DNA from: an uncultured bacterium
Lineage (GTDB): Bacteria > CSSED10-310 > CAZUFC01
NCBI GenBank assembly: GCA_964619725.1
Contig: CAZUFC010000018.1
Coordinates: 20,111-84,110, forward strand
Direction of reading: 5' to 3'
Length of the DNA: 64,000 nt
Shown here: positions 1,274 to 46,290 of the stretch, piece by piece
How the letters are laid out: each line of letters starts with the position of its first letter
Numbering within the stretch: position 1 is the stretch's first letter
Program-made: the position numbers and the translations under genes
The notes under the pieces: model-generated
What the model was told of the DNA's origin: nothing
Seen by the model: only the letters and a program-made list of their open reading frames with translations
Database searches by the model: none

Positions 1274-1432
1274 TCGATCGATTCAAATGACTGCCCTGTT
1301 TTGTTTTCAAACGACTGTACAGGCCAGGCCGATGCTTCGATTACGATTACCGCTGCACTGAGCAAGAGCATGAGCAAGAAGGATTCAAGCTGAGAAATTG
1401 TAACCCAGACATGGCCATTTTTGATCAGCGCC
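1274..1432 (-). mobile_element. MITE-like dispersed element, 'TGATCA family' (GATTAC/GAGCAC interior; partial)
   Basis: Its reverse complement aligns over about 150 bp with 45865-46017. It ends in aattgtaacccagacatggccatttttgatcagcgcc. Confidence 0.8.
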
Positions 1433-1483
1433 GGAATTTCTTATTCACTTGAAGAAGACGACACTCGATCATTCTTTCGATTT

Positions 1484-1597
1484 ATTTTGTTTCGACTGCG
1501 ATTCCGATCCCGACCCCGATTACTGAAAAAAAAACTGTCAAGCGTTTTGAAAAAAGTGTAACCTCGGTTTGATCATTTCCATTTTTTGATCAGTCCC
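1484..1597 (+). mobile_element. MITE-like dispersed element, 'TGATCA family' (CGATCC/CGACCC interior; right half)
   Basis: ttttgtttcgactgcgattccgatcccgaccccgattactgaaa…gtgtaacctcggtttgatcatttcc matches 10508-10600. A second end, tttgatcagtccc, follows. Confidence 0.75.
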
Positions 1598-1608
1598 AAT
1601 ATTTCTTT

Positions 1609-1684
1609 TTGACTTCTTTTTCTTTTTTTGTATTATTTATTTTCATAGACCAATGAAGGACCTTCATTGGTCTATGAAAATAAA
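1609..1684 (+). promoter_or_regulatory. Candidate sigma70 promoter (TTGACT-16-TATTAT) followed by a 49-bp perfect palindrome
   Basis: TTGACT at 1609-1614 and TATTAT at 1631-1636. The palindrome arms are 1636-1659 and 1661-1684. Confidence 0.5.
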
Positions 1685-1747
1685 GGAGATTCTTCCGCTT
1701 TTTTAACCCCCCCTTGTCATAATTTAAGAAGCGAGATGAGATAAGCT

Positions 1748-4024
1748 ATGAAACTAAATATCCTGTCAAATCGGTCTGTGGTCAATGCTGCGTTGAGGTG
1801 GATGGTCAGCCTGGCGTTGCTGGTGATGGCGGTGGGGTGTGAACGGGATGACGCAGATCGGGTGAACGAGCCTTCTGCTCCGTCCGGACTCAATGTGTTG
1901 CTTGTGACCTTGGATACGACGCGTGCGGACCGGCTGGGGTGTTATGGATACGATACTGCAGAGACGCCGAACCTGGATAAGCTTGCGGCCGAGGGCGTAC
2001 GATTTGATAGGGCGTATGCTCAGGCTCCGCTTACGCTGCCGTCCCATGCCTCTTTGCTCACTGGGAAGTACCCCCCTGAGCTTGGGATGCGAATCAACGG
2101 GGGCGGGCGTTTGTCCGGCGACATTCCGACGCTGGCAACGGAGTTGAAGGGTGAGGGCTACAGAACCGGGGCGTTCGTGGCAGCGGCGGTTTTGAGCAAA
2201 GCGTACGGACTGGAACGCGGTTTCGATATTTACGACGACGATATGAGTGACACGGGCGCAGGCGTTTTAGTTGCAGAGCGCCCGGGTGATCAGGTTTGCG
2301 ACGCAGCGCTTGAATGGCTGGCTGAGTCGCCTGAGGGGCCGTTTTTCGCATGGATACATCTGTTTGATCCACACCATCCATATAATCCTCCCGATCCTTA
2401 TCGTTCGAAATTCTCCGATCCGTATGACGGCGAAATCGCTTTTACGGATGCACAGGTGGGACGGCTGCTGCAACGGCTGCAGGACCTGAAGTTGACAGAC
2501 CGTACCCTCGTGGTGGTCGCCGGGGATCACGGGGAGGCATTCGGCGAGCATCAGGAAAAGCAGCACGGACTGTTCGTTTATGAATCGACCATGCGAGTGC
2601 CGCTTATCGTTGTTAGTCCAAAAAGCGTGCAGGTTGGTCTGGTGATTGACGGCGTAGTAGAATTGGTGGATATCATGCCGACGGTTCTAGAACTGGCGGG
2701 TATGAAGGATGTACCGGAGGTTTCGGGTCAGAGCCTGGTTGCAGCGATGCGGGACCCGGCATCAGCGGTCGGTCAGTATGCGTATGGGGAATCGCAGTAT
2801 CCGCGCATGAGCTTTGGGTGGGCATCTTTGGTAAGTTTGACTTCTGATCGATGGAAGTACATCAGAGCCCCACGGCAGGAGCTATATGACCTGCGGGCTG
2901 ATCCGAGCGAGGAGGAGAACATCATAGCGGATTACGCTGAAGTGGCGTCCGATCTTGACTGCCGACTGCAGAGGATGCTTGAGATGATGGAGGTTCAGGA
3001 GGCTTCGTCCGTTGACCGGAACGCGGAATCTCTCGCCCAATTGCAGGCCCTGGGGTATGTCGGCGGAACGTCGAATAATGTCGGCGATGATGAGAACGGC
3101 CGTGATCCGAAGGACATGGTCGTTGTGTATCGTGGGCTGATGCAAGCGCGCGACGCGCTTCAGCGCAGGCGATATGATGACGTGACCGAGATCATCGAAC
3201 CGCTGATTGAGCAAAGTCCGGAGTCTGACGCGCTCTATGCGCCGTTGGGTGCGGCATTTCTGCGGTTGGGGCGCTTTGAGGATGCCCGGCATGCTTACTC
3301 GATGAGTTTGCGGCGGGATAATGACCATCCCGGAAACCTGTGCGGCCTGGGAGACTCCTTGCGACAGTCGGGGCGAGTGGATGAAGCCATTTTGGTCTAC
3401 GAACAAGCGCTGGCGGCGTGGCCGAACTACGGGCAAGCACACAGCCGGCTGGGGCTGATAAGGGCGCAACAGGGGGACCACGCCGAAGCGCTCGAACATT
3501 TTCGTCGATTTGCGGAGCTGAATCCCTCCTCGCCCAACGCACACACAAACCTGGCTAATGCTTTGATGGCTGTGCAGCAGGCGGATAAGGCAGTGCATGA
3601 GCTAGAGATTGCCCTGGAGCTGTCTCCTGACTACGAGCCTGCGCTGCGGATATATTGGTACTATCTTTGGTCGACCGGTCGGCGCAAGAAGGCGGCGGCA
3701 GCTCTACGGCGGGCCTGCAAAGCATTTCCGCAGGACGGCGAGTTGTGGCTTAATCTGACCCGGGTGCTGGCAACGGCTCCCGGTTTGAGAAGCGGGCTTG
3801 ACGAGGCGGTGCAGACAGGAGAACGGACCGTTAAGCTTCAACCCAATGATCCTGTGGCGCTGGATACCCTGGGTATAGTCTATGCGCAGGCGGGTCGGTT
3901 CGAAAAGGCGATCCGACTCGCAGTGCGTGCGGAAAACCTGGCCCGTGCCGCGGGGAACGATGAATTCGCTGAAGAGATTCTGTCCAGATTGCAGCGATAT
4001 CGCGAGCAAAAGCCTCTGCCGTAG
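1748..4024 (+). CDS. Lipoprotein sulfatase-like hydrolase with C-terminal TPR repeats
   Basis: Lipobox MAVG-C, then LLVTLDTTRAD, APLTLPSHASLLTG, YDGEIAFTD, GDHGEAFGEH and LQALGY, followed by multiple TPR-like helical repeats. Confidence 0.9.
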   Translation: MKLNILSNRSVVNAALRWMVSLALLVMAVGCERDDADRVNEPSAPSGLNVLLVTLDTTRADRLGCYGYDTAETPNLDKLAAEGVRFDRAYAQAPLTLPSHASLLTGKYPPELGMRINGGGRLSGDIPTLATELKGEGYRTGAFVAAAVLSKAYGLERGFDIYDDDMSDTGAGVLVAERPGDQVCDAALEWLAESPEGPFFAWIHLFDPHHPYNPPDPYRSKFSDPYDGEIAFTDAQVGRLLQRLQDLKLTDRTLVVVAGDHGEAFGEHQEKQHGLFVYESTMRVPLIVVSPKSVQVGLVIDGVVELVDIMPTVLELAGMKDVPEVSGQSLVAAMRDPASAVGQYAYGESQYPRMSFGWASLVSLTSDRWKYIRAPRQELYDLRADPSEEENIIADYAEVASDLDCRLQRMLEMMEVQEASSVDRNAESLAQLQALGYVGGTSNNVGDDENGRDPKDMVVVYRGLMQARDALQRRRYDDVTEIIEPLIEQSPESDALYAPLGAAFLRLGRFEDARHAYSMSLRRDNDHPGNLCGLGDSLRQSGRVDEAILVYEQALAAWPNYGQAHSRLGLIRAQQGDHAEALEHFRRFAELNPSSPNAHTNLANALMAVQQADKAVHELEIALELSPDYEPALRIYWYYLWSTGRRKKAAAALRRACKAFPQDGELWLNLTRVLATAPGLRSGLDEAVQTGERTVKLQPNDPVALDTLGIVYAQAGRFEKAIRLAVRAENLARAAGNDEFAEEILSRLQRYREQKPLP

Positions 4025-4414
4025 AACTATTTGAGTGACCGGTTAAAAACGCCTCCTGATGCGTCAGGGATGCGCTCTACCCTCCCATTGCCGCTAGGAT
4101 AAGGCTTGTTTTTATTTCCAGTAACCATTGCCGGGTTTTGGCCGGCTCGGTTAGGTCGGGATTGTTTTGTTCGTTTTGAGCCTTTTCCTTTGATTCGGAT
4201 GCTGGATGGCTGATCATGGTTGCTTTTACGGCTTTTTTTAAGTGACTGATCAGATGAAGGTAATAAATCAGAGAGGCCTGATCAAACCGTAGCTGCTCTT
4301 TTTTCAAAACTTTTAACAGTGTGTTTCGGTGTCGGAGGCGCAGCAAAATGATTAAGAGGAGATATGTGTTGTCCTCATCATATTTACAAAGTTCTTAATT
4401 ATTCAAGGCTTCGA

Positions 4415-4452
4415 AAATCGTAACCTCAAAGACGCATTTTTGATCAATGCCC
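4415..4452 (-). repeat. Isolated left terminus of the 'TGATCA family' element
   Basis: aaatcgtaacctcaaagacgcatttttgatcaatgccc is nearly identical to the ends at 41606-41643 and (reverse complement) 10452-10490. Confidence 0.75.
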
Positions 4453-4503
4453 CTTTTGCAGAAAAAACAATCGTTTGAACGAAGCGGCAGGATAGGGATT
4501 TCT

Positions 4504-7500
4504 TTAAAAGCGCTCCTTATTCATCGCCGGTGAAAACACAGGAGTTGTCGTCGGTTTAGCGATCACTGACGGAGCGGCATAACTGCAATCGTAAGTGAAT
4601 ATGCCGTCCTCCGGCCTGAAATAGCGAATTTGATCCACCGGGTTGGATATGATGACGGCGGATTCATCGCCGTAAAAGCAGTCGACACAGACGACTTCGA
4701 ACGTAATGACTGCAAACGAACCGTTTAATTCGGGAGTAATCGCTGCATAGGGATCGAAGGCGCCTGTTCTGAGATGCCCCGGGGACGTTCTGTTGCATAT
4801 GAACCAGTTCCATGTTGAATTTAACTCGCCTTTACGGCAGGATATGAACTTCAGCATTTGAGGATCATAAAAAAGATCGAATCCTGCGGCATGAACAGTG
4901 TGTTCGTTGCTGCGAATCATCACGGGAACATCAATCAAGTCTCCTGCGCAGCCTCTGATATCGTTGATGAAGAGTTTTCCCCTATTGTGAGAAAAATGCG
5001 GTTGATCGTCATAGCGTCCCAGGTCGATGTTTTTAAACGGTCCTATGGCATCGACGCATTCGCAGTCCAGCATGACGTAATTCCACAGGATGCACTGAGC
5101 ATCTCCAGGCGTTACGGCGGCATTGCCGTCGCAATCAGCGGAACAAAACTCTTCAAATGTCGGCTCCGGCATATCTTGCAGATAGATGTTGAATGCGTGG
5201 AGGCCGTCACCCGGCGTCAATTCTCCGTTATTGTCTACATCGCCGTCGTTCCGGCAATCGGGAGGACAGGGAACGCCCTGACTGCTGCTTAACCACGGAT
5301 CATACAGCACATCGCCCCATACTTCGTCGCCGCTTCCTGTTCCGAGGCCGGACGGTCCGTCGGAAGCGCCCCAGTAGTTGAAGTCTGCCTGGAAAGTTCC
5401 GCCTGAAGCGTTGGAATCTGCCGTCAGTCCGTATAAGACATTATTTTGTATATTGTTATATTCCGCATAGCCGTCCGGAATGGGATAAGGTCCTCCGTAT
5501 TCACCGCTGCCTCCAAACAGAAAAATGCCCTGTGCGTTACCGGTCACGTCGTTGCAAACGCATATCAATTCGGAGATGTCCCATAAACGGAACGCCTGCC
5601 CTTCGCCGCCTTCACCTGACGATACGTTGTTTACGCTGTTGTGATGCAATTCGACCGCACCGGCGTGATTGATTTCCAGGGCCGCATAATGCTGACCGGT
5701 TTGCCCCTGGTTTCCGCCGATATCGCTCCAAACGTTATCGTAACATTCAACCAGGTCGGTCAGGTCGGAATAATCGCCGCGGAGAGCGACAACGCCGTTG
5801 CAGTCATGGATGTAGTTCCCTGCGAAAAGGATTGTCGCGACAGGCAGTTCATTTTCACCGGTGAATCCCGGATTCACAGGGTCCATGTCCATGACCGCGC
5901 TTCCGAGAATGTTCCTGAATTCCGTATTCGTTACAGCGAATGAATCACCCAGCTTGTTGCCGTATATCCCATGACGGTCTGCAGCATTATGGCCGTCTAA
6001 TACGCACTCGTCCATAACGAAATCCCGGACAGCGCCGGTATTCGTCATGCTGATGATACAGTCAGAACCCGCATCGCCTTCAATATGCAGGTATTCGAGA
6101 TAAAGTCCGGAAAGATTTCCGGCATTCTGGAACAAAATTCCGCCTGAAATAACCGGCAGACCGGCCGCCTCGCCTGAAATAAGCAGATTGTCCTTGTTAA
6201 AATCAGACTCGAATGTAACGGTCTCGTCGTAAATGCCGGAATTAACTCTTATTTCACCCCCGTACGCAACCGCCTCCAGCGCCTCCTGGACACCGGCGAA
6301 AGCATCGTAACCGAAAACATGGCCGTCGACGATGTCCCCTGGTTCGCTTCCCGCCCAGTCGTCGTCCACCCACACCAGGTTTGGCTGCGGGGATGGACTG
6401 GGTGAGGGGGTATACGTCGGGCTGCTGCTCGGAGTCCTGGTCGGCGTCAGCGTGGGCGTTCTTGTCGGAGTAAGCGTCAGGGTTCTCGTGGGGGTATTGG
6501 AAGGCGTCAGCGTATGAGTCGATGTCGGAGAGGGCGTCATAGTTGGAGTCAGGACGACTGTCGGTGTCGGTTGAACGTCTCCGTAAGGACCGTCCGGCGG
6601 AGTGAAATCTGTCGTCCATCTCGCCAATCCCTTCGTAATGCGAATCTCGTCGAGGTGACCATCTAAAAATTGGGACTCATATACATTGCTTCCGATGAAC
6701 AGGTCATCAGAATTATTATTGATCACGCCGGAAAAGGTTCCATTGTCATCTTCGTGTCCGTCTATGAACAAATATACATCTGTCGCTGATTTTGCTCCGG
6801 CGACGTGATGCCATTCCCCGTCATTTAACGACCCGGAACTCGTTAGGGCAAAATAAGGCAGCCCCCCGTCGTCGTCCAGGCTGAATTCTATTGTACCATG
6901 ATAGATTCTGAACTGCCAGGACCTTTCCTGCTCCTCCCATCTCCATTGCCCGATAATTTTGTTGTCGGGTTGAGATGCCGTAGTCCTGATCCAGAAATCG
7001 ACCGTAAAATCGCCGCTGCCGAAGTCCCAGTCTATGCTGTCAGGAATACGAAGATAATCGCCGGTTCCGTCGAAACAGATGGAACTCTGGGAAAATTTTG
7101 CATAGTCAGTATCATGCTGGGCATCGCCATAAGGGGTTATAGGATGAGGTTCGGATGCCCCCAGCGAAGCATCCTGGAACCCTGTTGCTCCGTCCGTATG
7201 ATTGGAATGGATCAACAATACGGTATAAGCGTCATTGCCGTTTCCAGGCAACGTAGGAGACGGACTCGGCGTTAAGGTTGGCGTCATAGTCGGCGTCGAC
7301 GTGGGCGTTAAAGTTGCGGTAGGAGAATGCGTCGGCGTCGACGTGGGCGTTAAAGTTGCGGTAGGAAAATGCGTCGGCGTATGGGTCGGGGTAAAAGTGG
7401 CCTGCGATTCACCGTAAGGTCCCGTGGGCGGAATAAATTCTTCGGTCCATCGAGCCATTCCTTTGCTTATGCGTATTTCGTCCAGGTAACCGGTATAATG

Positions 7501-8907
7501 CTCGCTCCCGTATACATTGCTGCCGATGTAAAGGTCTGCCGTATTGTTGTTGACGTTCCCGGAAAACGTCCCGCTGCTCGCTTCCTGTCCGTCGATGAAT
7601 AAGTATACGTCGTCTCCCGATTTGACGCCGGCCACATGATGCCATTGCCCGTCATTCATATTGCTGCCGGACAACAGGGAAAAATAGGGCGCTGAACCGT
7701 TATCGTCCAGCGAGAATTCTATTCTGTTGTTTGCCAGTCTCAGTTGCCATGATCTTTCGAGTCCCTCCCATTCCCATTGACCGATAATCTTACTGTTGGA
7801 TTGCGAAACCGTGTCTCTCATCCAGAAATCGATCGTGAAATCGCTGCTGTCAAAATTCCAGTCTTCGCTGTCAGGAATAGTCAAGCAATCGCCGCTGCCG
7901 TCGAAGCATATCGAACTCTGCCCGAATTTAGATATATCCGTCGAATGATGCACATCCCCAACGGGCGTAATCGGATGCGGTTCCGTCGCGCCGTAGGCAT
8001 CGTCGACGAAGACCGTCGAACCGTCGCCATCGTCTGAGTGGATCAGCAGTACGGTATTGGAGTCGTTGCCGTATCCGGGCGCTGTCGGGGTCGATGTGGG
8101 CGTTCTGGTGGGCGTCATGGTGGGCGTTGCGGTTGATTGCGGTTGACCATAGGGTCCTGTCGGCGGCGTGAATTCGGAAGTCCACCTGGCTATGCCTTTA
8201 GTGATGCGAATTTCATCAATATAACCGTTGAACGCGTAGCTTGTCTGCCAACCGTCTATGCCTATCATAGCGCCGCCGCCGTCCTCGATTACGGATGCTC
8301 CTATATCGGTCGTTCCTACTGAAACGCCGTCCAAATACAACGTTACCGTCGACCCATACCTCACCACAGCCACATGCTGCCACACGCCCGTCACCAGCGA
8401 CACACTCGATCTCACATCCGTCCAGTTTCCTCCTATTCTCATGATCGCCGTCAGTCGTCCCCCGAACCCGTCATGCCTCGCATACAGGTTTACGCCTTTC
8501 GCTTCACCCAATACTCGCATCCCCATTATGCCGTCCTTGTCGCCTACATAATTGGGAAATACCCAGCAATCCATCGTAAAATCAGCGTTCCCGAAATTCC
8601 AGTCATCGCTGTCGGGGATGCTCAAATAATCGCCGGTTCCGTCGAAATAAATCGAGCTCTGACCGAATTTCGATTCATCCGTGGAATGATGAGCGGTTCC
8701 CGACGCCGTGATTACATGAGTCTCCCCCGCTCCGTACGCATCGTTGACGAATGTCGTCGAACCGTCAGGTTCGTCTGAATGAATCAAAAGCTTTGTATAC
8801 TGATCGTTACCGTCCCCCATTACACATGGAGATGAAATCAATCCTGCGATTAAAATAAAAAAAATTGAAAAAAATGACCTTTTTGACGATGCGATCATCA
8901 ACTTCAT
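4504..8907 (-). CDS. Secreted modular protein: 3x LamG/concanavalin-like domains, PT linkers, right-handed beta-helix, dockerin, cohesin
   Basis: Probable ATG at 8907 after a GGGGGAAGG RBS, with a signal peptide. Three repeats GNDxxTxLLIHS…DFTxDxW…WxHVAxV…GxIDEIRITKGxARWT. Beta-helix region ending NYWGASDGP. Dockerin GDVDNNGELTPGD…ADCDGNAAVTPGDA. Cohesin GDLIDVPVMI…GFDLFYDPQMLKF…FAVITFEV. Confidence 0.85.
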   Translation of the reverse strand: MKLMIASSKRSFFSIFFILIAGLISSPCVMGDGNDQYTKLLIHSDEPDGSTTFVNDAYGAGETHVITASGTAHHSTDESKFGQSSIYFDGTGDYLSIPDSDDWNFGNADFTMDCWVFPNYVGDKDGIMGMRVLGEAKGVNLYARHDGFGGRLTAIMRIGGNWTDVRSSVSLVTGVWQHVAVVRYGSTVTLYLDGVSVGTTDIGASVIEDGGGAMIGIDGWQTSYAFNGYIDEIRITKGIARWTSEFTPPTGPYGQPQSTATPTMTPTRTPTSTPTAPGYGNDSNTVLLIHSDDGDGSTVFVDDAYGATEPHPITPVGDVHHSTDISKFGQSSICFDGSGDCLTIPDSEDWNFDSSDFTIDFWMRDTVSQSNSKIIGQWEWEGLERSWQLRLANNRIEFSLDDNGSAPYFSLLSGSNMNDGQWHHVAGVKSGDDVYLFIDGQEASSGTFSGNVNNNTADLYIGSNVYGSEHYTGYLDEIRISKGMARWTEEFIPPTGPYGESQATFTPTHTPTHFPTATLTPTSTPTHSPTATLTPTSTPTMTPTLTPSPSPTLPGNGNDAYTVLLIHSNHTDGATGFQDASLGASEPHPITPYGDAQHDTDYAKFSQSSICFDGTGDYLRIPDSIDWDFGSGDFTVDFWIRTTASQPDNKIIGQWRWEEQERSWQFRIYHGTIEFSLDDDGGLPYFALTSSGSLNDGEWHHVAGAKSATDVYLFIDGHEDDNGTFSGVINNNSDDLFIGSNVYESQFLDGHLDEIRITKGLARWTTDFTPPDGPYGDVQPTPTVVLTPTMTPSPTSTHTLTPSNTPTRTLTLTPTRTPTLTPTRTPSSSPTYTPSPSPSPQPNLVWVDDDWAGSEPGDIVDGHVFGYDAFAGVQEALEAVAYGGEIRVNSGIYDETVTFESDFNKDNLLISGEAAGLPVISGGILFQNAGNLSGLYLEYLHIEGDAGSDCIISMTNTGAVRDFVMDECVLDGHNAADRHGIYGNKLGDSFAVTNTEFRNILGSAVMDMDPVNPGFTGENELPVATILFAGNYIHDCNGVVALRGDYSDLTDLVECYDNVWSDIGGNQGQTGQHYAALEINHAGAVELHHNSVNNVSSGEGGEGQAFRLWDISELICVCNDVTGNAQGIFLFGGSGEYGGPYPIPDGYAEYNNIQNNVLYGLTADSNASGGTFQADFNYWGASDGPSGLGTGSGDEVWGDVLYDPWLSSSQGVPCPPDCRNDGDVDNNGELTPGDGLHAFNIYLQDMPEPTFEEFCSADCDGNAAVTPGDAQCILWNYVMLDCECVDAIGPFKNIDLGRYDDQPHFSHNRGKLFINDIRGCAGDLIDVPVMIRSNEHTVHAAGFDLFYDPQMLKFISCRKGELNSTWNWFICNRTSPGHLRTGAFDPYAAITPELNGSFAVITFEVVCVDCFYGDESAVIISNPVDQIRYFRPEDGIFTYDCSYAAPSVIAKPTTTPVFSPAMNKERF
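7289..7380. repeat. 42-bp tandem duplication within a PT linker
   Basis: gtcggcgtcgacgtgggcgttaaagttgcggtagga(g/a)aatgc occurs twice with one mismatch. Confidence 0.85.
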
Positions 8908-9289: not shown

Positions 9290-10171
9290 GTGAATAGGTC
9301 CCGCATAGACAACGACAAAGAATTTATATTTACCCTCACCTCCACGACTGCTGCGCCGCTCCGCCCAAATTGCGCTGCAACTCCTTCACGAATACACAGC
9401 CGTTACCAAAGACATCCGGAAGATATTTCGACAGCAGATTTTCCAGTCCGATTATGTATTAATATTCGAAAATTATTCTGCGACAATGAGCAGTGTCGTT
9501 ATAGGATATTCACTGAAAAAATACCGTTCCTTTTGAATTCATACTAACGACTAACAAATGGATTATTACAGCAGGCATTACATGAGGCATTTGCTCTTGG
9601 CGGCGAAGCCGGCTCCCGGCTTCTCGAAATTCTGGGTATATCGATTAGTCCGGACACGCTTATTCGCCTTATCCGCCGCTTTCCTGATCCTGTCTTTCCA
9701 ACGCCTCGTGTTTTGGGTGTCGATGATTGGGCCAAAAGCAAAGGACAAACCTATGGGACATTGTTGGTTGATTTGGAGAAAAGACGTGTCGCGGATGTTT
9801 TGCCCGACAGATCGGCAGAAACTTTGAAGAAATGGCTTATTGACCATCCATGCATAGAAGTCGTCAGCCGGGACCGCGGAACGGAATACAGTAAAGGAGC
9901 GACAGAAGGCGCTCCTAATGCCGAGCAGGTGTCGGATCGTCGGCATTTATTGAAGAATTTACGAGAAGCCATCGAGCGTGTCCTTCAAACAAAGGTTTCT
10001 TTTTTACAAGTAGTTCCGGTGAATGAAGAATACGAGACCAATTGTTCCGGCGCTTCACCGCCCGGACAGGACAAACCGGCAGTTGAAAATGAGGATGCCG
10101 CAAATGACAATATACAGGGATTTGAAATGCGTAATCCGACAATTAAAATTATCCTAATGCCAATACAATGA
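9290..10171 (+). pseudogene. ISL3-family transposase relic (in-frame TAA at 9545-9547, 3' truncated)
   Basis: Zn-ribbon region (SRIHSRYQR…RKLFCDNEQC…IFTE). The same frame continues past the stop: ALGGEAGSRL…SPDTLIRL…VLGVDDWA…YGTLLVDLE…LPDRSAET…SRDRG…GAPNAEQVSDRRHLLKN. The C-terminal half is missing. Confidence 0.9.
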
Positions 10172-10451
10172 ATGGAGAGGGGGAGTAAGATTGGGTTATT
10201 TTGGGGCGGGTTAGGGGATTTCGATCAGTCAAAGGTTTCATGGAAAAGTCCACATTTCGGGTTAACAATAGGCAGCTTGCTTGATTAGGAGTATTTACGA
10301 ACAGATTTGTTCTCCCATTACGCTATTATATCCGCCAAGTCGGGAATTTACTTTGCTCCTAAAATAGCAGCATTTGTCGCCCTCCTTGTAAAAACCGCAA
10401 CATATGGCAGGAGTGACAAATGTCACTATCTTCGGAGCTTAAGCGATTTTT

Positions 10452-10600
10452 GGGAATTGATCAAAAATGCGTCTTTTGGGATTACGATTCTACAGAATAT
10501 CCCATCATTTTGTTTCGATCCCGACCCCGATAGCGACCCCGATTATTGAAACAAAATGTCAAACGTTTTTAAAGAAGAGTAACCACGGTTTGATCAGCCC
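10452..10600 (+). mobile_element. Complete 'TGATCA family' MITE-like element (149 bp)
   Basis: Left end gggaattgatcaaaaatgcgtcttttgggattacgatt, interior (CGAnnn)5, right end gtaaccacggtttgatcagccc. Colinear with the reverse complement of 41506-41643. Confidence 0.85.
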
Positions 10601-10606
10601 AAGAGT

Positions 10607-14020: not shown

Positions 14021-14150
14021 ATATTCCTCCTTAATATAATTGAAAACAATACCCCTTCCGCTCACCAGTCAACAAGAGCAGCTTTCTCGTTTCATTTAAT
14101 ACACGTTTTATGGGTAAAAATGCAAATTTTTTACCTCACCCCCCGGCCCC

Positions 14151-14393
14151 CTCTCCATGCATGGCTTTGGCATTAGGATAACAGGAATCAATCGTTGTTT
14201 TTAAAGCAAAAAACGTTAAAAATGTATTCGGTGTCGTTGTCGCTGTCGAATTTAAACTCGAAGCTCATTCATGTGAAATTGGGTTTAAAATTCATCGCGC
14301 ACGATAATCCGACAACGACAACGATTCATCAGCCAACATATTGAGAAGTAATGAAGTAAAGCTTATCCTAATACGTATTCCATGCCTGGAGAG
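14151..14393. mobile_element. Inverted-repeat-bounded element (31-bp imperfect arms) with internal inverted CGACAA hexamers
   Basis: ctctccatgcatggctttggcattaggataa (14151-14181) pairs with ttatcctaatacgtattccatgcctggagag (14363-14393). A third arm lies at 10149-10183. Confidence 0.7.
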
Positions 14394-18407: not shown

Positions 18408-18417
18408 GATACTTACC

Positions 18418-28310: not shown

Positions 28311-28727
28311 TAAGTCATTGTATTTTCGTTCACAGACCTTTTGGCATGAAAAATGCTTCCATATCAGCGTCAGCTTCGGACCGAATGCAGACAAACTTAC
28401 GCTCGATGGAAGGCAGGGGGCATGCCGCTGTAGACGGTAAAACCTCAGCGGCCGGACTATGCCCGATAAAGAAATGCTCTGCGCCCAAACCGGGCGTGGG
28501 GGAGGGCCCGAAAAAAGGGGCGGGGTTTATCCTTTGATTTTAAGGGTTTAGCCCCTGCTGCCGTATTCCTTGTGTCGACAAGTGTAATTGGAATTTTTTA
28601 ACGGGGGATATTACGTCGCAAAATGCGGGATTCCTGAACTTGATTTTTCGGGGCCAGGGGAATCACTGAAAGAAATCGATCCATCCTTTCAGTAAGCATC
28701 AAAAGGAAAGTTCAATGAGAAATATTC

Positions 28728-29208
28728 GGCACTGATTGAAAACAGGTCTTTTGAGTTTACAATACGGCAAAATATCCCATCGTCTTGTTTTGATTGCGGT
28801 TGCGATTTATATCCCGATCCGACCCAGATTACTGAAGCGAACCGTCATACTTCAGAACTCCTGACAAAGACAACCTAATATATTGAAATCAATTGACTTT
28901 TTTACACTGAGTCTCGGCATAAAAATTGTGCAGTTTTTAGCCCCCCCTATATCCGTGAAAAGAGCGTTGATTAATCGAAATTCAAAGATTGGCACTGATG
29001 TCAATGAGGATACAGGATGATGTTTCTTGTGGTTTTTAATAGTCTTCATATTCGATTAATCAACGGACCCGCAAGCGGGGGAATTTTGTTTAATTGATTT
29101 TTTTGATCGATTACTGGATTTTCGTCGAATATTTCACAATTTTTTATCGGTCAATGTCAGGATATGTGAAATTTTTCTAAGAAGCGTAATCCCGGTTTGA
29201 TCAGTCCC
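28728..29208 (+). mobile_element. 'TGATCA family' element expanded by an internal insert of about 300 bp
   Basis: Left end ggcactgattgaaaacaggtcttttgagtttacaat with a colinear body to ~28850. Right end gtaatcccggtttgatcagtccc at 29186-29208. Confidence 0.7.
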
Positions 29209-29267
29209 GAATATTCAATTTTAAAACGTCAGAAGCATTTATACGGCGAATCATCGATAGATTCAGT

Positions 29268-36975: not shown

Positions 36976-37056
36976 CGTTTATTTTCCATCTGAAAAATTA
37001 GAAATGTTCTTTCCGGTTCGCAAAGCATCAGGGTTATGCCCCGGCCTATCAGCAAA

Positions 37057-38283: not shown

Positions 38284-38299
38284 GATCCGGCTTTTCCTT

Positions 38300-39688: not shown

Positions 39689-39770
39689 CGGTAATCCCTC
39701 CGGTATTTCCGGTTGCCGGGTAAAAGGAGGCGGCAGAAGCGCCCCTGGTTGAATAGGAGAGTATTACAAT

Positions 39771-41426
39771 TCATTTTAATGCGCCTGTACCCAGATGTAT
39801 AAAACGATTTATCTGTTCCTGCAGCAGGTTGATCCTGGAAGCGACGGGACGGCGGTTTTTCCATTTTGATTGAAGAAAAGAGCGTAATTCATTTTTTATC
39901 TGATCCGCTCCCCATTCCAATTCTTCTCCAAGAATAACCGCTGCCTGGAATGAACAGGAAAAACCTCCGCAGGGACCCATCCCGAGTCTCGTCCGCCTGC
40001 TGATGTCTTCCAGCGTTGCGGCATGTTCATGTCTCACGGCGTGCCTGATTTCAGCGCGACTGATCGATTCGCACCGGCATATAATGGTTTTTTTGTCCTG
40101 GTCGTCCCATTCGTCCGATTCCAGTATATCCTGCGCCGTCGTTCCATATCGGCAAATCATACGTTCCGCAGCTAACTCGATAATACCGTGTTTTCTTGCA
40201 AGTTCGCCGGCGCTTACGGAGGATGCGCTTCCCGGTAAAGGGAGCTCCCGGGTTCTGCAGGCGCTGCAGGTACGCTTTCTGTTCAGTTTTTCACATACGC
40301 GGTCAACAGCCTTTTCCGCCATCAGGCGATAATCAGCCAATTTTCCTCCCGTTATAGTCGCCAATCCTTCGATGCCGTCAGACTCAGCGTGATCAATTAC
40401 TTTGAAATCCCTGGACAGGCGATCCTCGTTCACCCCCCAATCGAACAAGGTAGGCCTAATACCGGCTATCACCCCTGTGATCCGTGCCTCCCTGATCCGG
40501 GGAAGAACCCGCTCCATCGACGCCAGCAGGTATTCGACCTCATCATTTAAAACTTCAATATCGTCCAAATCTCCGAAATAATCATCATCCGTCGTTCCCA
40601 GCATGCTGATGTTTTCATGCGGCTGAACGAATATCTCACGCCCGTCCATGGCCGTGGCTACGACGGCATAATTCACTATCCGCCGATCGAACAGAATGTG
40701 CACCCCTTTGGCAGGCCTGAGCTTCACCTCCGCACCGGCCATCTCAGCCAATTCCGAAGACCAGGGTCCGCCGGCATTTAAAATTATATCGCATTCCAAT
40801 TCCTTGTATTCACCCGTCAATTCGTTCACGCAATTCAGTCCCGTTATTCTTCGGCCTTCCCGTCTGAAACCGGCCGCTCGATGGTGATTCCATATCTCAG
40901 CGCCGTGCTCCCTGGCTGATAAAGCATTCAAAAGACATAAACGATATACGTCTATCCCCCATTCATCAAAAGTGATCGCTCCCTCCGTCATCCACGACAA
41001 TCCCGGTTCCAACTTCAAAACCTCTTCTCGCCTCAACCTCAAATGACGTTTGCCGCCCTTTAACCGGCTGAACCGGTCATATTCCTTCATGAAAGTTTCG
41101 ATCAATTCTATCTGTATCTTCGGAAATAACTTATCCTTCAAGACAGGAAATATAAAAGGAATGCGGAATATCAGATGTCCCGCGTTTTCTGCTATTGAAC
41201 CGCTGTCCTCACAAGCGTCTCGCGTCGTCTTGCGATCATACAGCAAATATCGCACGCCGCCGTGGATCATGCCGCTCGATACGCCGCTCGTTCCCGATCC
41301 GAAATCGTTTTTCTCAAGCAATAACGTCTTTACGCCCCGCAGCGCCAGATCACGCGCGCACCCGCTGCCCACTGCTCCGCCGCCGATCACGATACATTCA
41401 AATTTTTTTTCTCCTCTTTCTTTCAT
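39771..41426 (-). CDS. glpA: Anaerobic glycerol-3-phosphate dehydrogenase subunit A-like (FAD, C-terminal BFD-like 2Fe-2S)
   Basis: IGGGAVGSGCARDLALRG, GTSGVSSGMIHGGVRYL, PAKGVH, GTTD, AGIRP, ITGGKL, ICRCE…RRTRLGMGPCGGFSC. Probable ATG at 41426. Confidence 0.9.
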   Translation of the reverse strand: MKERGEKKFECIVIGGGAVGSGCARDLALRGVKTLLLEKNDFGSGTSGVSSGMIHGGVRYLLYDRKTTRDACEDSGSIAENAGHLIFRIPFIFPVLKDKLFPKIQIELIETFMKEYDRFSRLKGGKRHLRLRREEVLKLEPGLSWMTEGAITFDEWGIDVYRLCLLNALSAREHGAEIWNHHRAAGFRREGRRITGLNCVNELTGEYKELECDIILNAGGPWSSELAEMAGAEVKLRPAKGVHILFDRRIVNYAVVATAMDGREIFVQPHENISMLGTTDDDYFGDLDDIEVLNDEVEYLLASMERVLPRIREARITGVIAGIRPTLFDWGVNEDRLSRDFKVIDHAESDGIEGLATITGGKLADYRLMAEKAVDRVCEKLNRKRTCSACRTRELPLPGSASSVSAGELARKHGIIELAAERMICRYGTTAQDILESDEWDDQDKKTIICRCESISRAEIRHAVRHEHAATLEDISRRTRLGMGPCGGFSCSFQAAVILGEELEWGADQIKNELRSFLQSKWKNRRPVASRINLLQEQINRFIHLGTGALK

Positions 41427-41433
41427 AATGTCA

Positions 41434-41462
41434 TTTCTAACCGTATTAACGCATTGTGTCAA
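41434..41462 (-). promoter_or_regulatory. Candidate sigma70 promoter of the glp/AGPS operon
   Basis: TTGACA-17-TAGAAA on the minus strand, 7 nt before the ATG. Confidence 0.5.
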
Positions 41463-41505
41463 GAGCTTGAAATAAATAATCATTACGGGAAAAATTAAAA
41501 AATTC

Positions 41506-41643
41506 GGGAATGATCAACCCGGGGTTGCACTTCATTCTAAACTTTTGACGTTTTGTTTCAGTAATCGGGATCGCAATCGAAACAAAATGAGGGGAGATTC
41601 TGTCGAATTGTAACCTCAAAAGACGCCTCTTTGATCGATGCCC
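41506..41643 (-). mobile_element. Complete 'TGATCA family' element (138 bp)
   Basis: The reverse complement, ggcatcgatcaaagaggcgtcttttgaggttacaatt…cgattgcgatcccgattactgaaacaaaacgtcaaa…gcaaccccgggttgatcattccc, is colinear with 10452-10600. Confidence 0.85.
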
Positions 41644-41781
41644 TCTCTAAAAAATGCATATCGCTTTATCATTGTCAATCATCAAACGCATCGCATAGAA
41701 TGAAGGCTGCGTAGAATTTTGGTCGCATGAGCAGGACATCAAATCAGGATCGCCGAAATAAAGTCGGCAGAGCAGGGAAAA

Positions 41782-42708
41782 ATGTTGAACCGTGTGAAGA
41801 ATTTCTTTATTTACAGCAGATTTCCGTTTTTTACGGGAGTGGTCATGCCGGTAATGATAGGGACGAGTCTTGCTTATGCGGAAGGACATCCTGTGCATTG
41901 GGTTCGTTTTCTGATGGTTCTGGCCGGGATGGTGTTTGTTCATGCCGGTATGAATCTGGCCAATGATTATTATGATTTCAAGAGCGGGGCCGACCTGGGG
42001 AACCGCAATCGAGGACCTTTTTCAGGAGGCGGTCCGGCGCTGATTGAAAAGCGTGCGACACCTGGGCATGCAAAAGTATTGGTTGTATTTTCATTTGCCG
42101 TATCGGCGCTGATGGGTATTTCACTGGCATTGGCGGTGAAGGAAGTCCTGGGGCTGTTAATTTTTCTGATGGTCGCCGGTTTCCTGGGCGGCTATTTTTA
42201 TGCTGCGCCGCCGGTGCAGCTTGCGTACAGGGGATATGGCGAATTGTTCATATTTCTTTGTTTCGGGCCGCTTGTTGTTCTGGGCGCTTATGCGGTCCAG
42301 AGCAGTATTTTTTCCTGGTCTGCAGTGTGGGCAGGCTTTCCTGTCGGGTTCCTCATAACCAATGTCTTATGGATCAACCAGTTTCCCGATGCTGAATCAG
42401 ACAGGCAAGCCGGAAAAATGACCCTGGTGGTAAAAATGGGAAAAGCTCGTGCCCGTATACTTTTTTATCTCTTTTTTGCGGCGGGGTTTGCTGCACTGCC
42501 TGTTCTTTTTTTTGCGGGAGTGATAAAAGCGCCGGCGCTTGTCGCTCTGATTCCTGCCTTATTGGCCCTGAAGGCTTCGCTCATATGCCGCAGGCATTAC
42601 GATAATGCAAAGGCTCTCCTGCCTGCGCAACGTTATACCATCCTGGTCCATGCTTCCACGGGCATCCTGATGGCGCTCGGTCTGACGGCATCCGGTTTTA
42701 TCTCTTGA
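41782..42708 (+). CDS. menA: UbiA-family prenyltransferase, MenA (DHNA octaprenyltransferase)-like
   Basis: NLANDYYDFKSGAD, FSGG, YAAPP.LAYRGYGE, FGP, INQFPDAESD..AGKMTL.V; multi-TM. Confidence 0.85.
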   Translation: MLNRVKNFFIYSRFPFFTGVVMPVMIGTSLAYAEGHPVHWVRFLMVLAGMVFVHAGMNLANDYYDFKSGADLGNRNRGPFSGGGPALIEKRATPGHAKVLVVFSFAVSALMGISLALAVKEVLGLLIFLMVAGFLGGYFYAAPPVQLAYRGYGELFIFLCFGPLVVLGAYAVQSSIFSWSAVWAGFPVGFLITNVLWINQFPDAESDRQAGKMTLVVKMGKARARILFYLFFAAGFAALPVLFFAGVIKAPALVALIPALLALKASLICRRHYDNAKALLPAQRYTILVHASTGILMALGLTASGFIS

Positions 42709-43092
42709 CTTTTTAGTTATATATGTCCATCCGTCCTATATTCAGACTTCGTTAAGGCAAAATTTAAAGTCATTTAAATTCAATTATTTGAGCAGCATCT
42801 TTAAAATTGGACAATCGAGCAAAAACAAACATTTCAAAACTATTTAAATTCAATATGATAGTCAATGCCGGTGAATCGCCCGATCATCTCTTTTTGGTCT
42901 AACTATATGATTTTAATAACTTTAATAAAATGATCCATTGTCCAAAAAATCCACTGTTTTTTCACCCCTTTTTAACGATCTCTGATATTATAATTTTTCA
43001 TCTGCATTTTTCGATTATCGGAGTCGGTATAGCAAGCGGAACGGCAAATTCGGGATGTATCTTTAAATCTGATGCTAATATGCGTTTTTGAT

Positions 43093-43560
43093 TCAAATGC
43101 CGGTAGAGCCGAATCCGTTTTTGCCCCTGTCGCTTCGATCTATTTCATCTGTTTCTTCAACCGCTACACTGTAAACGGGTTGAACAACGAGCTGGGCTAT
43201 TTTCATACCGGGTTTGATTCGAAAAGTATCCTTGCCGTGATTGATCAGGATAACGCCCACTTCGCCGCGGTAGCCTTCGTCAATAGTGCCGGGAGCGTTC
43301 AGCACGGTTACGTTGAAATTGAGGGCGAGACCGCTGCGGGGACGAACCTGGGCTTCTGTATCGTGGGGCAGTTGGATCGCTATCCCTGTTCTCACCAATC
43401 GAGCCTGGCCGGGATCGATAGTCAGCTCTTCGCAGGAAAAAAGGTCCAAACCCGCATCGCCCGGATGCGCCGGACGTGGCAGCATCGCTCTTTCCCTCAA
43501 TTTTTTGATCAACAATTTTGGTTTTGGCTGTCGTTTGCGACGATGCTTTTTGGCGTTCAT
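43093..43560 (-). CDS. dut: dUTP diphosphatase
   Basis: [41 protein letters not shown]. Confidence 0.97.
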
Positions 43561-43820
43561 ATTTTAATTCTCCGTTGAGCGACATCAGGGCTTTCTTTTT
43601 TAGGTAATATTGAATGGCATGTCAACCGAACAGCCCCATGCTTTACTTCATTTTTCCTTCTGCGACGGCGTGAATCTTTTTTTCGCTTCAATTGCTTATA
43701 TGCTGAGGTAAACCAAACGACGGTCGCTTTGTTTTCTTGTGTTCATACTGAACAGTCGTTATAATGAGCTTCCTGGAATTTTGGTTTTTGCGGGCGGCGC
43801 TCGCAGAAGGAGAGAGACGC

Positions 43821-44663
43821 ATGAGAAAAATAATTCAACTGTTGATAATGTCCGGAGTAATAATTGTATTGGCGGCTCATTCAGCGAATGGATTCGGCCT
43901 GTCACTGGCGGGTAGATACTGGAGCTCGAGTTGGGAAACGGAGAATCTTGTGCTTGAGATACCGGAGGCGTCTTTCGGAGGTTATGTAGTTCCGAGTTAT
44001 TACGACACAGTGGACAGCATGGATTCGTCGGGCGTCGGCATGTACGGACTGGGACTCACTTTGCATCTGACGGATGCTTTTTCTTTTAATACCACGTTTA
44101 TGACGGGAAATTACGATGTGGAGATCGAATACGAGCAATTCATACCGGCGGAAGAAGTGGGCATTGATTTTGAGACTGAGTTTCGCATGGAACAGAGCGT
44201 GACCCGGTATGATATTGACCTGGCGTTTCAATACCGGATCAACCGTTATCTGACGGCCATCGTAGGATATAAGTCGCTGACCTATTCCTTTGAGAATCAG
44301 GTTATTGAACAGAAGAACATTTGGGGAGGCCGGGACGAGCAGTATGAAGAGCCGGAGATCGGGGCTTTTGATATATCTTATACGGGACCTGGAGCGGGTC
44401 TGAGCGGATTCTGGTTATTTCCCAACAACTTTTTTTATTACGGTGTGATTTCCGCATTGCCTTATTTGAAAGCATCCGGCGATGCTGACGAAAGACTGGA
44501 AGATACAGACGGCTGGGCCTACGTGGGAGAGGTCGGTCTGGGTTATGCCGTGACCGAATCTTTTGTTCCGACGCTGGGATGGAAGTATCAGCAATTTTCG
44601 GGTTTTGGGGAATTATCGGAGATTTTTAACGGCGTGACGGTGGGTTTGAGTTATCGATTCTGA
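43821..44663 (+). CDS. Outer-membrane beta-barrel protein
   Basis: Signal peptide, alternating amphipathic beta-strands and C-terminal beta-signal VTVGLSYRF. AGGAG RBS; TTGTGT-17-TATAAT upstream (43737-43765). Confidence 0.8.
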   Translation: MRKIIQLLIMSGVIIVLAAHSANGFGLSLAGRYWSSSWETENLVLEIPEASFGGYVVPSYYDTVDSMDSSGVGMYGLGLTLHLTDAFSFNTTFMTGNYDVEIEYEQFIPAEEVGIDFETEFRMEQSVTRYDIDLAFQYRINRYLTAIVGYKSLTYSFENQVIEQKNIWGGRDEQYEEPEIGAFDISYTGPGAGLSGFWLFPNNFFYYGVISALPYLKASGDADERLEDTDGWAYVGEVGLGYAVTESFVPTLGWKYQQFSGFGELSEIFNGVTVGLSYRF

Positions 44664-44793
44664 TTCCAGGACTTTTTTCGTCGAAGAGAGAAAGGCTGAA
44701 AACCTAAGGAAAGTGAAAAATCGAGGGAACGAAAAACGTTCATATTTCATGATAAGCTTCAATAAAAAGATCAAAAAGGATGGAGGAATCATT

Positions 44794-45831
44794 GTGAAAA
44801 GAGTTAAATTTTTTTCAATGCTTTTTGTTTTGGGAGTCATAACGATTTTTACAGGACCGGGAATGCAGGCTGAATGGCGGATGATTTATCAGAATCCGAG
44901 CGAAACGATATTCGATATCTGCTTTGCAGATTCAGACCATGGTTGGGCTACAAGCTGGGGCGGCGGAATTTTTCATACGCAAGACGAAGGAAAAACGTGG
45001 GAAGAACAGGAAAGCGGACTGAAGTATGAATGGATGAACGCTGTCGATTTTATTGACCGGTCGACAGGCTGGATAGCCGGCGGCGACGGTACTATCCTGA
45101 AAACTACCGACGGCGGCAATCAATGGGCTGCAAAAACTTATCTATTAAAGGGAAACGATCTCCTGGGGCTTTCACCGGAACAAGCCTTCAAACTCGTCCG
45201 CACCTCTGAAGCCGAAGGCGATATAAAAAATTTAGGGTTTGAAGACATCGAATTCTGGAATGAAAAAGAAGGCGTCGCCGTGGGCAGTCGCGGCATTATT
45301 CTGAAGACGAGAGACGGCGGAGGCAATTGGTTTTCGGTGAAAATTCCGACGGAAGAATTGATGATGGAGGTCCATTTTGCGGATGAAAATACAGGCTATG
45401 CCGTCGGAACGAAAGGCGTCGTCATTAAAACGACTGACGGCGGCTCAAACTGGGAAGCGCTGGATTCCGGGACAAAAGAACTGCTTTACGCCGTCTGGTT
45501 CGTTGATCCTGACATAGGCTGCATAGCCGGAAGGTCCGCCGCCATCTTAAGGACGACGGACGGCGGAAAAAACTGGTTCAGAACCTTCCAGGGCACTGAC
45601 GAAGAAGTCACAGACATGTATTTTACCGATGAAAAAAACGGATGGGCCGTCGGCGGCTCAGTCGAAAAAAATCAGTTCATACTCCGTACCACCGATGCCG
45701 GAAACTCCTGGAACAAACAGAAATACGATAAAAGAAACTGGTGGCATTCCGTATGGTTCACCGATGATGAAACAGGATACATCGGCGGAAACAGAGGCGT
45801 TATGATCAAGACGGAAGATGCCGGAGAGTAG
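44794..45831 (+). CDS. Secreted YCF48/BNR-repeat beta-propeller protein
   Basis: Repeats F.D…GW..G..G.IL.T.DGG..W; signal peptide; GTG at 44794 after GGAGG. Confidence 0.9.
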   Translation: MKRVKFFSMLFVLGVITIFTGPGMQAEWRMIYQNPSETIFDICFADSDHGWATSWGGGIFHTQDEGKTWEEQESGLKYEWMNAVDFIDRSTGWIAGGDGTILKTTDGGNQWAAKTYLLKGNDLLGLSPEQAFKLVRTSEAEGDIKNLGFEDIEFWNEKEGVAVGSRGIILKTRDGGGNWFSVKIPTEELMMEVHFADENTGYAVGTKGVVIKTTDGGSNWEALDSGTKELLYAVWFVDPDIGCIAGRSAAILRTTDGGKNWFRTFQGTDEEVTDMYFTDEKNGWAVGGSVEKNQFILRTTDAGNSWNKQKYDKRNWWHSVWFTDDETGYIGGNRGVMIKTEDAGE

Positions 45832-45864
45832 ACAGCGAATGTGCGCAAAATCATTTTAAATTTT

Positions 45865-46110
45865 GGCATTGATCAAAAATGGCCATGTCAGGGTTACAAT
45901 TTCTCAGCTTGAATCCTTCGTGCTCGTGCTCAGCACAGCGGTAATCGTAATCGAAATATCGGTCTGATTTGTACAGTCATTTGAAAGCAAAGTAGGACAA
46001 TCATTTGAATCGCTCGATTACGATTACGAGCACGAGCGCCGCTCCGTTGAGCACGAAAGTTCTTTTTGAGTATCGAGATCACAATTTGTAACACCTGTTT
46101 GATCAGTCCC
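45865..46110 (+). mobile_element. Complete 'TGATCA family' element (246 bp, GATTAC/GAGCAC interior)
   Basis: ggcattgatcaaaaatggccatgtcagggttacaatt … aatttgtaacacctgtttgatcagtccc; the interior has inverted hexamer blocks. Confidence 0.85.
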
Positions 46111-46175
46111 TAAATTTTTTATGCCAATGTGGAAAGGCGTTGCGAATTTTTAATCCGTAAACGAGAGAATATTTC

Positions 46176-46290
46176 GGGACTGATTAAACACCGATTACAA
46201 TTTGACCTATCAAAAAATCGACGAAAGAATTCTCCCTTTGGATGTCCGGCAAAATTGTAATCACGAAAGACACATTTTTGATCAATGACC
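46176..46290 (-). mobile_element. Minimal 'TGATCA family' element (115 bp)
   Basis: gggactgattaaacaccgattacaatt … aattgtaatcacgaaagacacatttttgatcaatgacc. Confidence 0.75.

What the first reader, a model, noticed from the sequence alone, without database searches (positions are those of the whole stretch)
1274..46290. Dispersed element family with conserved TGATCAAA…GGTTACAA ends but interchangeable interiors
Seen: eight complete or partial copies (1274-1432, 1484-1597, 4415-4452, 10452-10600, 28728-29208, 41506-41643, 45865-46110, 46176-46290), all intergenic and in both orientations. The left end is GGCATTGATCAAAAATG..TCTTTTGAGGTTACAATT and the right end (reverse complement) is GGGACTGATCAAAC..(G)GTTACAA. 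Each end is therefore bipartite (a TGATCA palindrome plus GTTACAA) with different spacing left and right. Complete copies are 115-481 bp, and the interiors fall into at least three unrelated classes. Inference: this is more like a cassette scaffold mobilised in trans by an unidentified transposase or recombinase than a typical MITE with a uniform interior. No cognate enzyme is in the window, and I could not identify a clear target-site duplication.
Basis: partly seen in the sequence, partly recalled or inferred. Interest (0 to 1): 0.72.

Follow-up and report, generated by a model that had tools for sequence, protein, structure and literature searches.

The report
MITEs borrowing an unnamed transposase's ends
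The repeats are copies of a small non-coding jumping-DNA element (a MITE) found at hundreds of places in this bacterium's genome, and their two unequal ends match those of an apparently unnamed insertion-sequence family whose transposase likely moved them and survives here only as broken copies.

Summary
The repeat is real: 629 'left' and 773 'right' ends genome-wide (1 and 2 in a shuffle), with 385 complete copies under 1 kb.

It is a type II MITE family.

The interiors are mostly uniform. 289 of 385 copies share one ~155-bp class with a variable hexamer tract; the rest are minor subfamilies, chimeras and nested repeats. No gene-carrying cassettes were found.

The likely mobiliser is a ~500-aa DDE transposase with a DxxH motif, distantly related to IS256 and ISL3 and under no curated family cut-off in the scores shown. 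It survives here as three broken remnants. Its intact relatives elsewhere (~1.8 kb) carry the same two-part ends (101/143 upstream, 100/130 downstream) and 8-bp duplications. The inner hexamer sits 10 bp further in at one end than the other.

An IS1-like gene lying inside one copy is a passenger: 0/80 and 1/77 of its homologues carry these ends.

Earlier scan notes found this family on other contigs of this genome; two blamed IS1, which my test contradicts.

The parts
756..925 (+).
   Evidence: (I6)
1274..1432 (-). Half copy, class B interior, IRR-type ('left') end at 1432; no partner end
   Evidence: (I1, I2)
1484..1597 (+). Half copy, class A with hexamer tract; doubled IRL-type ('right') end at 1580 and 1597
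4274..4451 (-). Complete 178-bp copy, chimera of a class C IRR side and a class A IRL side; no duplication left; a further degenerate end at 4242
10453..10601 (+). Complete 149-bp copy of the main class A; duplication decayed (3/8)
28720..28727 (.). Target-site duplication, left copy AAATATTC (right copy GAATATTC at 29209-29216; 7/8)
28728..29208 (+). Complete 481-bp copy: class A start followed by nested pieces of other genome repeats that mostly occur outside these ends
41506..41642 (-). Complete 137-bp class A copy between divergent genes; no duplication left
45857..45864 (.). Target-site duplication, left copy TAAATTTT
45865..46110 (+). Complete 246-bp class B copy with a perfect 8-bp duplication
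46111..46118 (.). Target-site duplication, right copy TAAATTTT
46176..46289 (-). Complete 114-bp copy with a single-copy interior; no duplication left

Best explanation
This is a high-copy family of non-coding MITEs, inserted with 8-bp target duplications, whose two unequal ends are those of an apparently unnamed insertion-sequence family, so that family's ~500-aa DDE transposase likely moved them in trans.

Shown: sharp ends; 8-bp AT-rich duplications; empty paralogous sites; duplications only around left-plus-right pairs; the same end layout on intact ~1.8-kb elements in other genomes. Three broken transposase remnants lie in this genome, two still ending in the IRR.

Inferred: the transposase binds the 13-bp tip and the inner hexamer, which the 10-bp offset would keep on the same face of the helix. 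It needs one end of each kind and nothing specific in between. It probably works by copy-out/paste-in like its nearest solved relative, the IS256-family ISCth4.

Also inferred: interiors diversify by hexamer-tract slippage, independent subfamilies, insertion of other repeats and IS elements, and nested or adjacent copies recombining or being moved from their outer ends. The family is probably mostly immobile now.
For: (1) Duplication length is exactly 8 bp: perfect in 61/380 copies, against 1/380 at 7 bp and 1/380 at 9 bp; shuffled pairing gives a mean of 0.49 and a maximum of 5 in 200. (2) 19/378 copies have an uninterrupted paralogous site, and in 16 of them the flanks overlap by exactly 8 bp. 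(3) Perfect duplications: 66/449 short left-right pairs, 0/17 left-left, 0/36 right-right; retention rises with end score from 5/96 to 32/97, rho 0.28. (4) Copies >=97% identical sit at different sites with different duplications. (5) The C179 and C164 remnants run from a transposase 3' end into the IRR. (6) Homologue loci show the IRL motif in 101/143 and the IRR motif in 100/130. A perfect 8-bp duplication is seen in 26/43 genome loci with both ends, from 9 genomes, 15 of them from one. (7) The hexamer offset is 9-11 bp in 57/58 distinct end pairs; in the MITE it sits at 19 and 29. (8) D, D, DxxH and E are invariant in 40/40 aligned proteins. Best PDB match is ISCth4 transposase by profile (E 7e-7) and by fold (E 2.8e-7, TM 0.32).
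Against: No intact transposase and no full-length element with both ends exists in this assembly (91% complete, 344 contigs); the remnants lack a recognisable IRL. The remnant IRR matches the MITE class consensuses at only 26-28 of 36 positions, so the actual mobiliser may have been a sister element. Only 1/35 metagenome loci with both ends show a perfect duplication; collapsed short contigs are the likely cause, but this was not shown. 84% of copies lack a perfect duplication. No empty site was seen between strains (four runs of one study, inconclusive). The reaction pathway is untested and the structural match is distant.
Confidence: 0.88

Rival explanations
1. It is a MITE, but it is moved by the single IS1-like transposase at contig C100, which lies between a left and a right end.
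For: The only PF13610/NF033547/NF033558-type hit in the genome lies inside a 2403-bp left-right pair. The ORF is intact (275 aa). GGnnnTG ends with 8-9-bp duplications fit IS1 (recalled).
Against: The DNA on both sides is an ordinary class A MITE split at one point. 0/80 and 1/77 homologue loci carry these ends, while 61/77 carry the IS1-like element's own CACTACC end, which C100 also has at the split point. The pair has no duplication (5/8).
Confidence: 0.03
2. It is a general cassette scaffold: the ends capture and move unrelated cargo, including genes, as a dedicated function.
For: At least six interior classes and chimeras exist, some with duplications: C-A 9 copies (1 perfect, 3 at >=7/8), F-G perfect, and a 690-bp element with a perfect duplication.
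Against: 289/385 copies are one class. Perfect duplications occur in 1/41 pairs of 0.6-1.5 kb, 0/60 of 1.5-4 kb and 1/185 of 4-15 kb, which is chance level. The extra DNA in long copies is mostly other repeats that occur mainly outside the ends (7/37, 9/32, 7/32, 25/96). Only 8/385 midpoints fall in an ORF of >=150 aa.
Confidence: 0.06
3. The ends are host regulatory or structural sites (transcription-factor boxes, REP-like elements) and not transposon ends.
For: Copies are intergenic and enriched in convergent gaps (72/211 against 363/2317 of all gaps). The core looks palindromic.
Against: 8-bp duplications, empty sites, and the same ends on autonomous elements in unrelated taxa. The exact pattern is absent from 40 other genomes searched, 13 of them in the same phylum.
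Confidence: 0.02

Closest known systems
Type II prokaryotic MITEs (review PMC10969869, passages read: Chunjie, QMITE, Correia, ERIC)
   Same: 50-500 bp, non-coding, intergenic, terminal repeats plus target duplication, moved in trans, similarity to the parent confined to the ends; copy number comparable with the 711 ERIC copies cited for Photorhabdus
   Different: Two-part ends offset by 10 bp; several subfamilies and chimeras on one pair of ends; the parent IS has no curated family
BrickBuilt MITE of Porphyromonas gingivalis (PMC4596501, abstract and outline read)
   Same: Intergenic MITE with an internal tandem-repeat tract between leader and tail segments
   Different: 23-nt unit and 19 copies there; a degenerate 6-nt unit and hundreds of copies here; sequence similarity between the two was not tested
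IS256 family and the other prokaryotic Mutator-like families p-MULT 1-5 (PMC3942029, parts 2-4 of 6 read; ISCth4, PMC7780238, passages read)
   Same: Single-ORF DDE transposase with a helical insertion and C/DxxH motif; 8-bp duplication; bipartite end recognition. The IS256 subterminal motif TGTAAA is the reverse complement of this family's inner hexamer TTTACA
   Different: Second D to E is 218-241 aa (sampled values) against a 99-138-aa insert in p-MULT; ~500 aa against ~400; scores far below the IS256, ISH6 and ISLre2 cut-offs; hexamer inverted and at unequal distances in the two ends
ISL3 family
   Same: Weak NF033550 match in 37/40 proteins; DxxH motif; GG ends and 8-bp duplications (the last two recalled)
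   Different: Scores of 19-33 bits where shown, against a cut-off of 180; 0 of 4 true ISL3 loci have these ends

Membership tests
MITE (type II) | Short (50-500 bp), non-coding, multi-copy | tested here: met
   Main class median 155 bp; 385 complete copies; 8/385 midpoints in ORFs >=150 aa
MITE (type II) | Terminal inverted repeats with a target-site duplication of fixed length | tested here: met
   8 bp, 61/380 perfect; 16 empty paralogous sites
MITE (type II) | Ends shared with an autonomous IS, interior not shared | tested here: met
   for the ends. No long similarity of interiors to the remnants: 16 short hits, longest 51 bp, the longest falling in flank or nested-repeat DNA of the C243 piece
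MITE (type II) | Mobilisation in trans shown experimentally | not testable with these tools
   No assay; strain comparison inconclusive
IS256 / p-MULT (Mutator-like) | DDE triad with a C/DxxH motif in a helical insertion after the second D | tested here: met
   D147, D202, D223xxH226, E464 invariant in 40/40; helical in the model, pLDDT 90.9
IS256 / p-MULT (Mutator-like) | 8-9-bp direct repeats | tested here: met
   26/43 genome loci
IS256 / p-MULT (Mutator-like) | Insert of 99-138 aa between D2 and E (PMC3942029) | tested here: not met
   D2 to E is 218-241 aa; DxxH to E is 241 aa here against about 86 in IS256 proteins
IS256 / p-MULT (Mutator-like) | Score above the curated model of IS256, IS1249, ISH6 or ISLre2 | tested here: not met
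   19-30 bits against 150 for IS256 where shown; best E 1.4e-11 among 40; ISH6 and ISLre2 1 of 40 each at E ~1e-3
IS256 / p-MULT (Mutator-like) | Circular intermediate (copy-out/paste-in) | not tested
   Inferred only; no IRR-IRL junction was searched for in reads
ISL3 | Score above NF033550 cut-off (180 bits) | tested here: not met
ISL3 | The window's ISL3 remnant is bounded by these ends | tested here: not met
   The remnant at window 9338-9988 has no inward-facing end of this family
IS1 (single-ORF IS1-like, contig C100) as mobiliser | Homologous transposases bounded by the same ends | tested here: not met
   0/80 and 1/77; own end in 61/77
IS1595 or IS6 as mobiliser | A transposase of the family in the genome bounded by these ends | tested here: not met
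   No PF12762 hit; the only PF13610 and NF033547 hits are the C100 IS1-like gene
Any named ISfinder family or ISNCY group (ISM1, ISMae2, ISDol1; names recalled) | Entry in ISfinder with these ends | not testable with these tools
   ISfinder is not available; paper searches found no description

The most novel reading that the evidence does not exclude
The mobiliser defines an undescribed, widespread insertion-sequence family (986 homologues; marine, sediment and mat bacteria of many groups). It is a sixth prokaryotic Mutator-like lineage with a doubled insertion domain that tells its two ends apart by placing the same inner hexamer exactly one helical turn further in at one end. That would give a DNA-encoded basis for donor/recipient asymmetry in copy-out/paste-in transposition, and would let any correctly oriented left-right pair, whatever lies between, be moved.
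Probability: 0.4. Interest if true: 0.55.

Novelty: new variant of a known kind. Interest (0 to 1): 0.36.

Why it matters
The repeat itself is ordinary selfish DNA: about 76 kb in complete copies, shaping intergenic space and serving as a landing site for other elements. The useful result is the link to a transposase family that Pfam and NCBIfam do not name and that databases mostly call 'hypothetical protein'. Its ends, 8-bp duplication and catalytic residues are now defined, so it can be annotated and assayed. The conserved 10-bp offset between the two ends is a directly testable handle on how Mutator-like transposases treat their two ends differently.

Tried and rejected
IS1595 and classical IS1 as partner: no PF12762 or PF03400 hit in the genome.

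The C100 IS1-like gene: at first the best candidate, rejected as a nested passenger.

The window's ISL3 remnant: not bounded by these ends.

Known RNA families and tRNAs: none in the window.

Gene-carrying composites: chance level.

Ends in viral contigs: one search used a spacing one base too short; the corrected scan also found 0. The transposase was not found in viral contigs. The phylum pattern had the same spacing slip and found 0 of 13 others. One search, with correct spacing, found 104 matches here and 0 in 40 other genomes. No close relative of this genome is held, so positional conservation could not be tested.

Empty alleles in four runs of one study: none seen, coverage low, inconclusive. 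An intact high-copy transposase in those runs: not seen; summed depth was about 1-4 times single-copy in the best run (contigs drop rare variants).

Literature: DUF6399 gave 0 papers; searches gave no description of this family. The 2007 archaeal IS review was not held. Supplements of PMC3942029 (lists of elements and ends) were not read and could contain related elements. The protein atlas gave no answer.

Full report
OBSERVATION. The eight loci are there. The bipartite pattern occurs 3 times in the window against 0.01 expected. The window is contig C18:20111-84110 of a 9.17-Mb, 344-contig genome, 91% complete; the four runs that hold it are microbial-mat metagenomes of one study. Matrices built from the ends find 629 'left' and 773 'right' ends at >=16 bits, against 1 and 2 in one block-shuffled genome. 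Of 440 inward-facing neighbour pairs, 399 are left-right. Conservation starts abruptly at the terminal GG, and the eight bases outside are AT-rich. In the window, 4415-4452 is part of a complete copy 4274-4451 and there is a ninth end at 925. Rfam and tRNA scans were empty.

IT IS A TRANSPOSON. Among 380 left-right pairs under 600 bp, 61 have identical 8-bp flanks and 111 have at most one mismatch. Lengths 7 and 9 give 1 perfect case each. Re-pairing flanks at random gives a mean of 0.49 (maximum 5 in 200). The window copy 45865-46110 has TAAATTTT on both sides and 28728-29208 matches at 7/8; the other four complete copies have lost it. Retention tracks end quality (5/96, 14/96, 11/96, 32/97 by quartile; rho 0.28) and main-class copies are a median 87.5% identical to their consensus, as expected of an ageing family. 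For 19 of 378 copies both flanks occur adjacent elsewhere in the genome, and in 16 the flanks overlap by exactly 8 bp: empty sites with one target copy. Perfect duplications surround 66/449 short left-right pairs, but 0/17 left-left and 0/36 right-right pairs, so one end of each kind appears to be needed.

INTERIORS. Of 385 complete copies under 1 kb, 289 are class A on both sides (median 155 bp). Their lengths step by 6 (161 of 289 share one residue modulo 6) because of a hexamer tract. Minor classes are B-B 17 (246 bp, the window's 45865 copy), C-C 10, D-D 6, E-E 3 and F-F 2. Mixed pairs include A-C 10 and C-A 9; some sides were unassigned. A few chimeras keep a duplication (C16:93911 and C136:8301 perfect, window 28728 7/8, a 690-bp element perfect), though in-place recombination could also preserve one. 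Class A and B interiors occur almost only inside the ends (427/436; 42/42, 39/40, 44/45). The middle of the 481-bp window copy consists of repeats found mostly elsewhere (7/37, 9/32, 2/6, 7/32, 25/96). Long pairs show no cargo signal: 1/41, 0/60 and 1/185 perfect duplications. Only 8/385 midpoints fall in ORFs of >=150 aa, which cover 81% of the genome, and convergent gaps are enriched (72/211 against 363/2317); I read this as purifying selection (inference).

A FALSE LEAD. IS1595 and IS1 Pfam models found nothing. One IS1-like gene lies inside a 2403-bp left-right pair on C100. The flanking DNA, however, is a class A MITE split in two, and the insert has its own end. Among 80 homologue loci, 0/80 have the upstream motif and 1/77 the downstream motif, while 61/77 have the IS1-like end. 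Two earlier scan notes named IS1 as mobiliser or closest family; this test contradicts them.

THE PARTNER. Two unpaired 'left' ends, on C179 and C164, share an unusual interior. It is the 3' end of a broken ORF, with three stops and a frameshift on C179; a third fragment lies on C243. The catalytic piece retrieved 503-529-aa proteins at 50-55% identity, and one of these retrieved 986 homologues; of the 120 listed, most lie on 1.7-2.3-kb contigs and are unnamed or 'hypothetical'. In 40 aligned proteins D147, D202, D223xxH226 and E464 are invariant. The AlphaFold model (pLDDT 90.9) shows an RNase H core with a long helical insertion. The nearest solved protein is the IS256-family ISCth4 transposase (profile E 7e-7; Foldseek E 2.8e-7, TM 0.32), then Hermes. 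No Pfam or NCBIfam cut-off is reached in the scores shown; weak hits are ISL3 (37/40), IS256 (32/40) and DUF6399.

SHARED ENDS. I fetched 78 genome and 80 metagenome loci, the best 80 of 106 and of 132 confirmed stretches. A single bipartite test finds the short-spaced motif upstream in 101/143 testable loci and the long-spaced motif downstream in 100/130; these counts include many copies from one genome. Elements have a median length of 1775 bp. 26/43 genome loci with both ends have a perfect 8-bp duplication (9 genomes, 15 loci from one), but only 1/35 metagenome loci do. Across distinct ends the inner hexamer, mostly TTTACA, starts at 18-19 in 63/65 upstream ends and at 28-29 in 73/74 downstream ends, and the offset is 9-11 bp in 57/58 pairs. 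In the MITE it starts at 19 (179/182) and 29 (217/224). MITE interiors do not resemble the remnants beyond about 36 bp, which makes this a type II MITE in the sense of PMC10969869 (passages read).

MECHANISM. Shown: ends, duplication, empty sites, pairing rule, shared ends, catalytic motif. Inferred: mobilisation in trans by this transposase family (about 0.9) and copy-out/paste-in chemistry (about 0.65). The latter rests on ISCth4, which binds its ends in a bipartite, asymmetric way and makes 8-bp duplications at AT-rich sites (PMC7780238, passages read), and on the circular intermediates reported across p-MULT families (PMC3942029, parts 2-4 read). A 10-bp offset is about one turn of B-DNA (established knowledge), so the inner site would stay on one helical face while making the two ends unequal; this is a hypothesis. 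The inner hexamer is the reverse complement of the IS256 subterminal TGTAAA, a resemblance only. With the transposases broken and no intact high-copy allele seen, the family is probably mostly immobile, although ten small groups of >=97% identical copies, several with different duplications, show late activity.

KNOWN OR NEW. The element passes the MITE tests. The parent works like IS256/p-MULT but fails membership on insert length (218-241 aa against 99-138) and on curated scores; it also fails ISL3. I found no paper on it, but ISfinder and most subscription papers could not be searched, so 'unnamed' is provisional. Homologues on plasmids are annotated 'hypothetical protein' (8/8 records). 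The scan had already noted this MITE family on other contigs of this genome.

VERDICT. Real, and largely ordinary: a high-copy type II MITE, not a new cassette system. The residual interest is the apparently unclassified parent IS family and its ends offset by one helical turn. Interest 0.36.

Noticed in passing
L002:139-2349 (G000:C100): A single-ORF IS1-like element (275-aa transposase, PIN-domain and hypothetical passenger genes downstream) inserted into a MITE copy. Its right end matches that of 61/77 phage-contig homologues.
   Followed up: yes
window:9338-10171: Truncated ISL3 transposase pseudogene with one stop, the only one in the genome. It ends at one arm of a 35-bp inverted pair (10149-10183 and 14147-14181) that brackets a MITE and a peptidase C13 gene.
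   Followed up: partly
window:46310-48792: XcyI/BsoBI-like restriction endonuclease plus N4/N6 methyltransferase directly beside the MITE doublet at 45865-46289.
   Followed up: no
window:1003-1060: A 9-nt tandem array; a similar array lies inside the 690-bp element at C43:24874-25563, which has a perfect duplication.
   Followed up: no
window:42780-42985: Another multi-copy intergenic repeat, seen as a depth peak with shared loose ends; it carries no ends of this family.
   Followed up: no
G000:C78:4190-4460: A second repeat family of about 235 loci; 54 of them lie within 350 bp inward of a MITE end against a 4% background, and MITE copies also insert into it.
   Followed up: partly
L179, L187 (G004, same phylum): Elements of the same transposase family with a different tip (GGCATCGGCAAAA type) but the same hexamer positions, 19 and 29.
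   Followed up: partly
G041 (genome of L043): 30 IRR matches, and about 25 near-identical 1.73-kb copies fetched, many with perfect duplications, so the family looks recently active there.
   Followed up: partly
window:4504-18407: Large secreted-type proteins (laminin-G/cohesin, peptidase C13/fn3, subtilase) with Thr-Pro-rich linker repeats explain the strongest direct repeats in the window.
   Followed up: no
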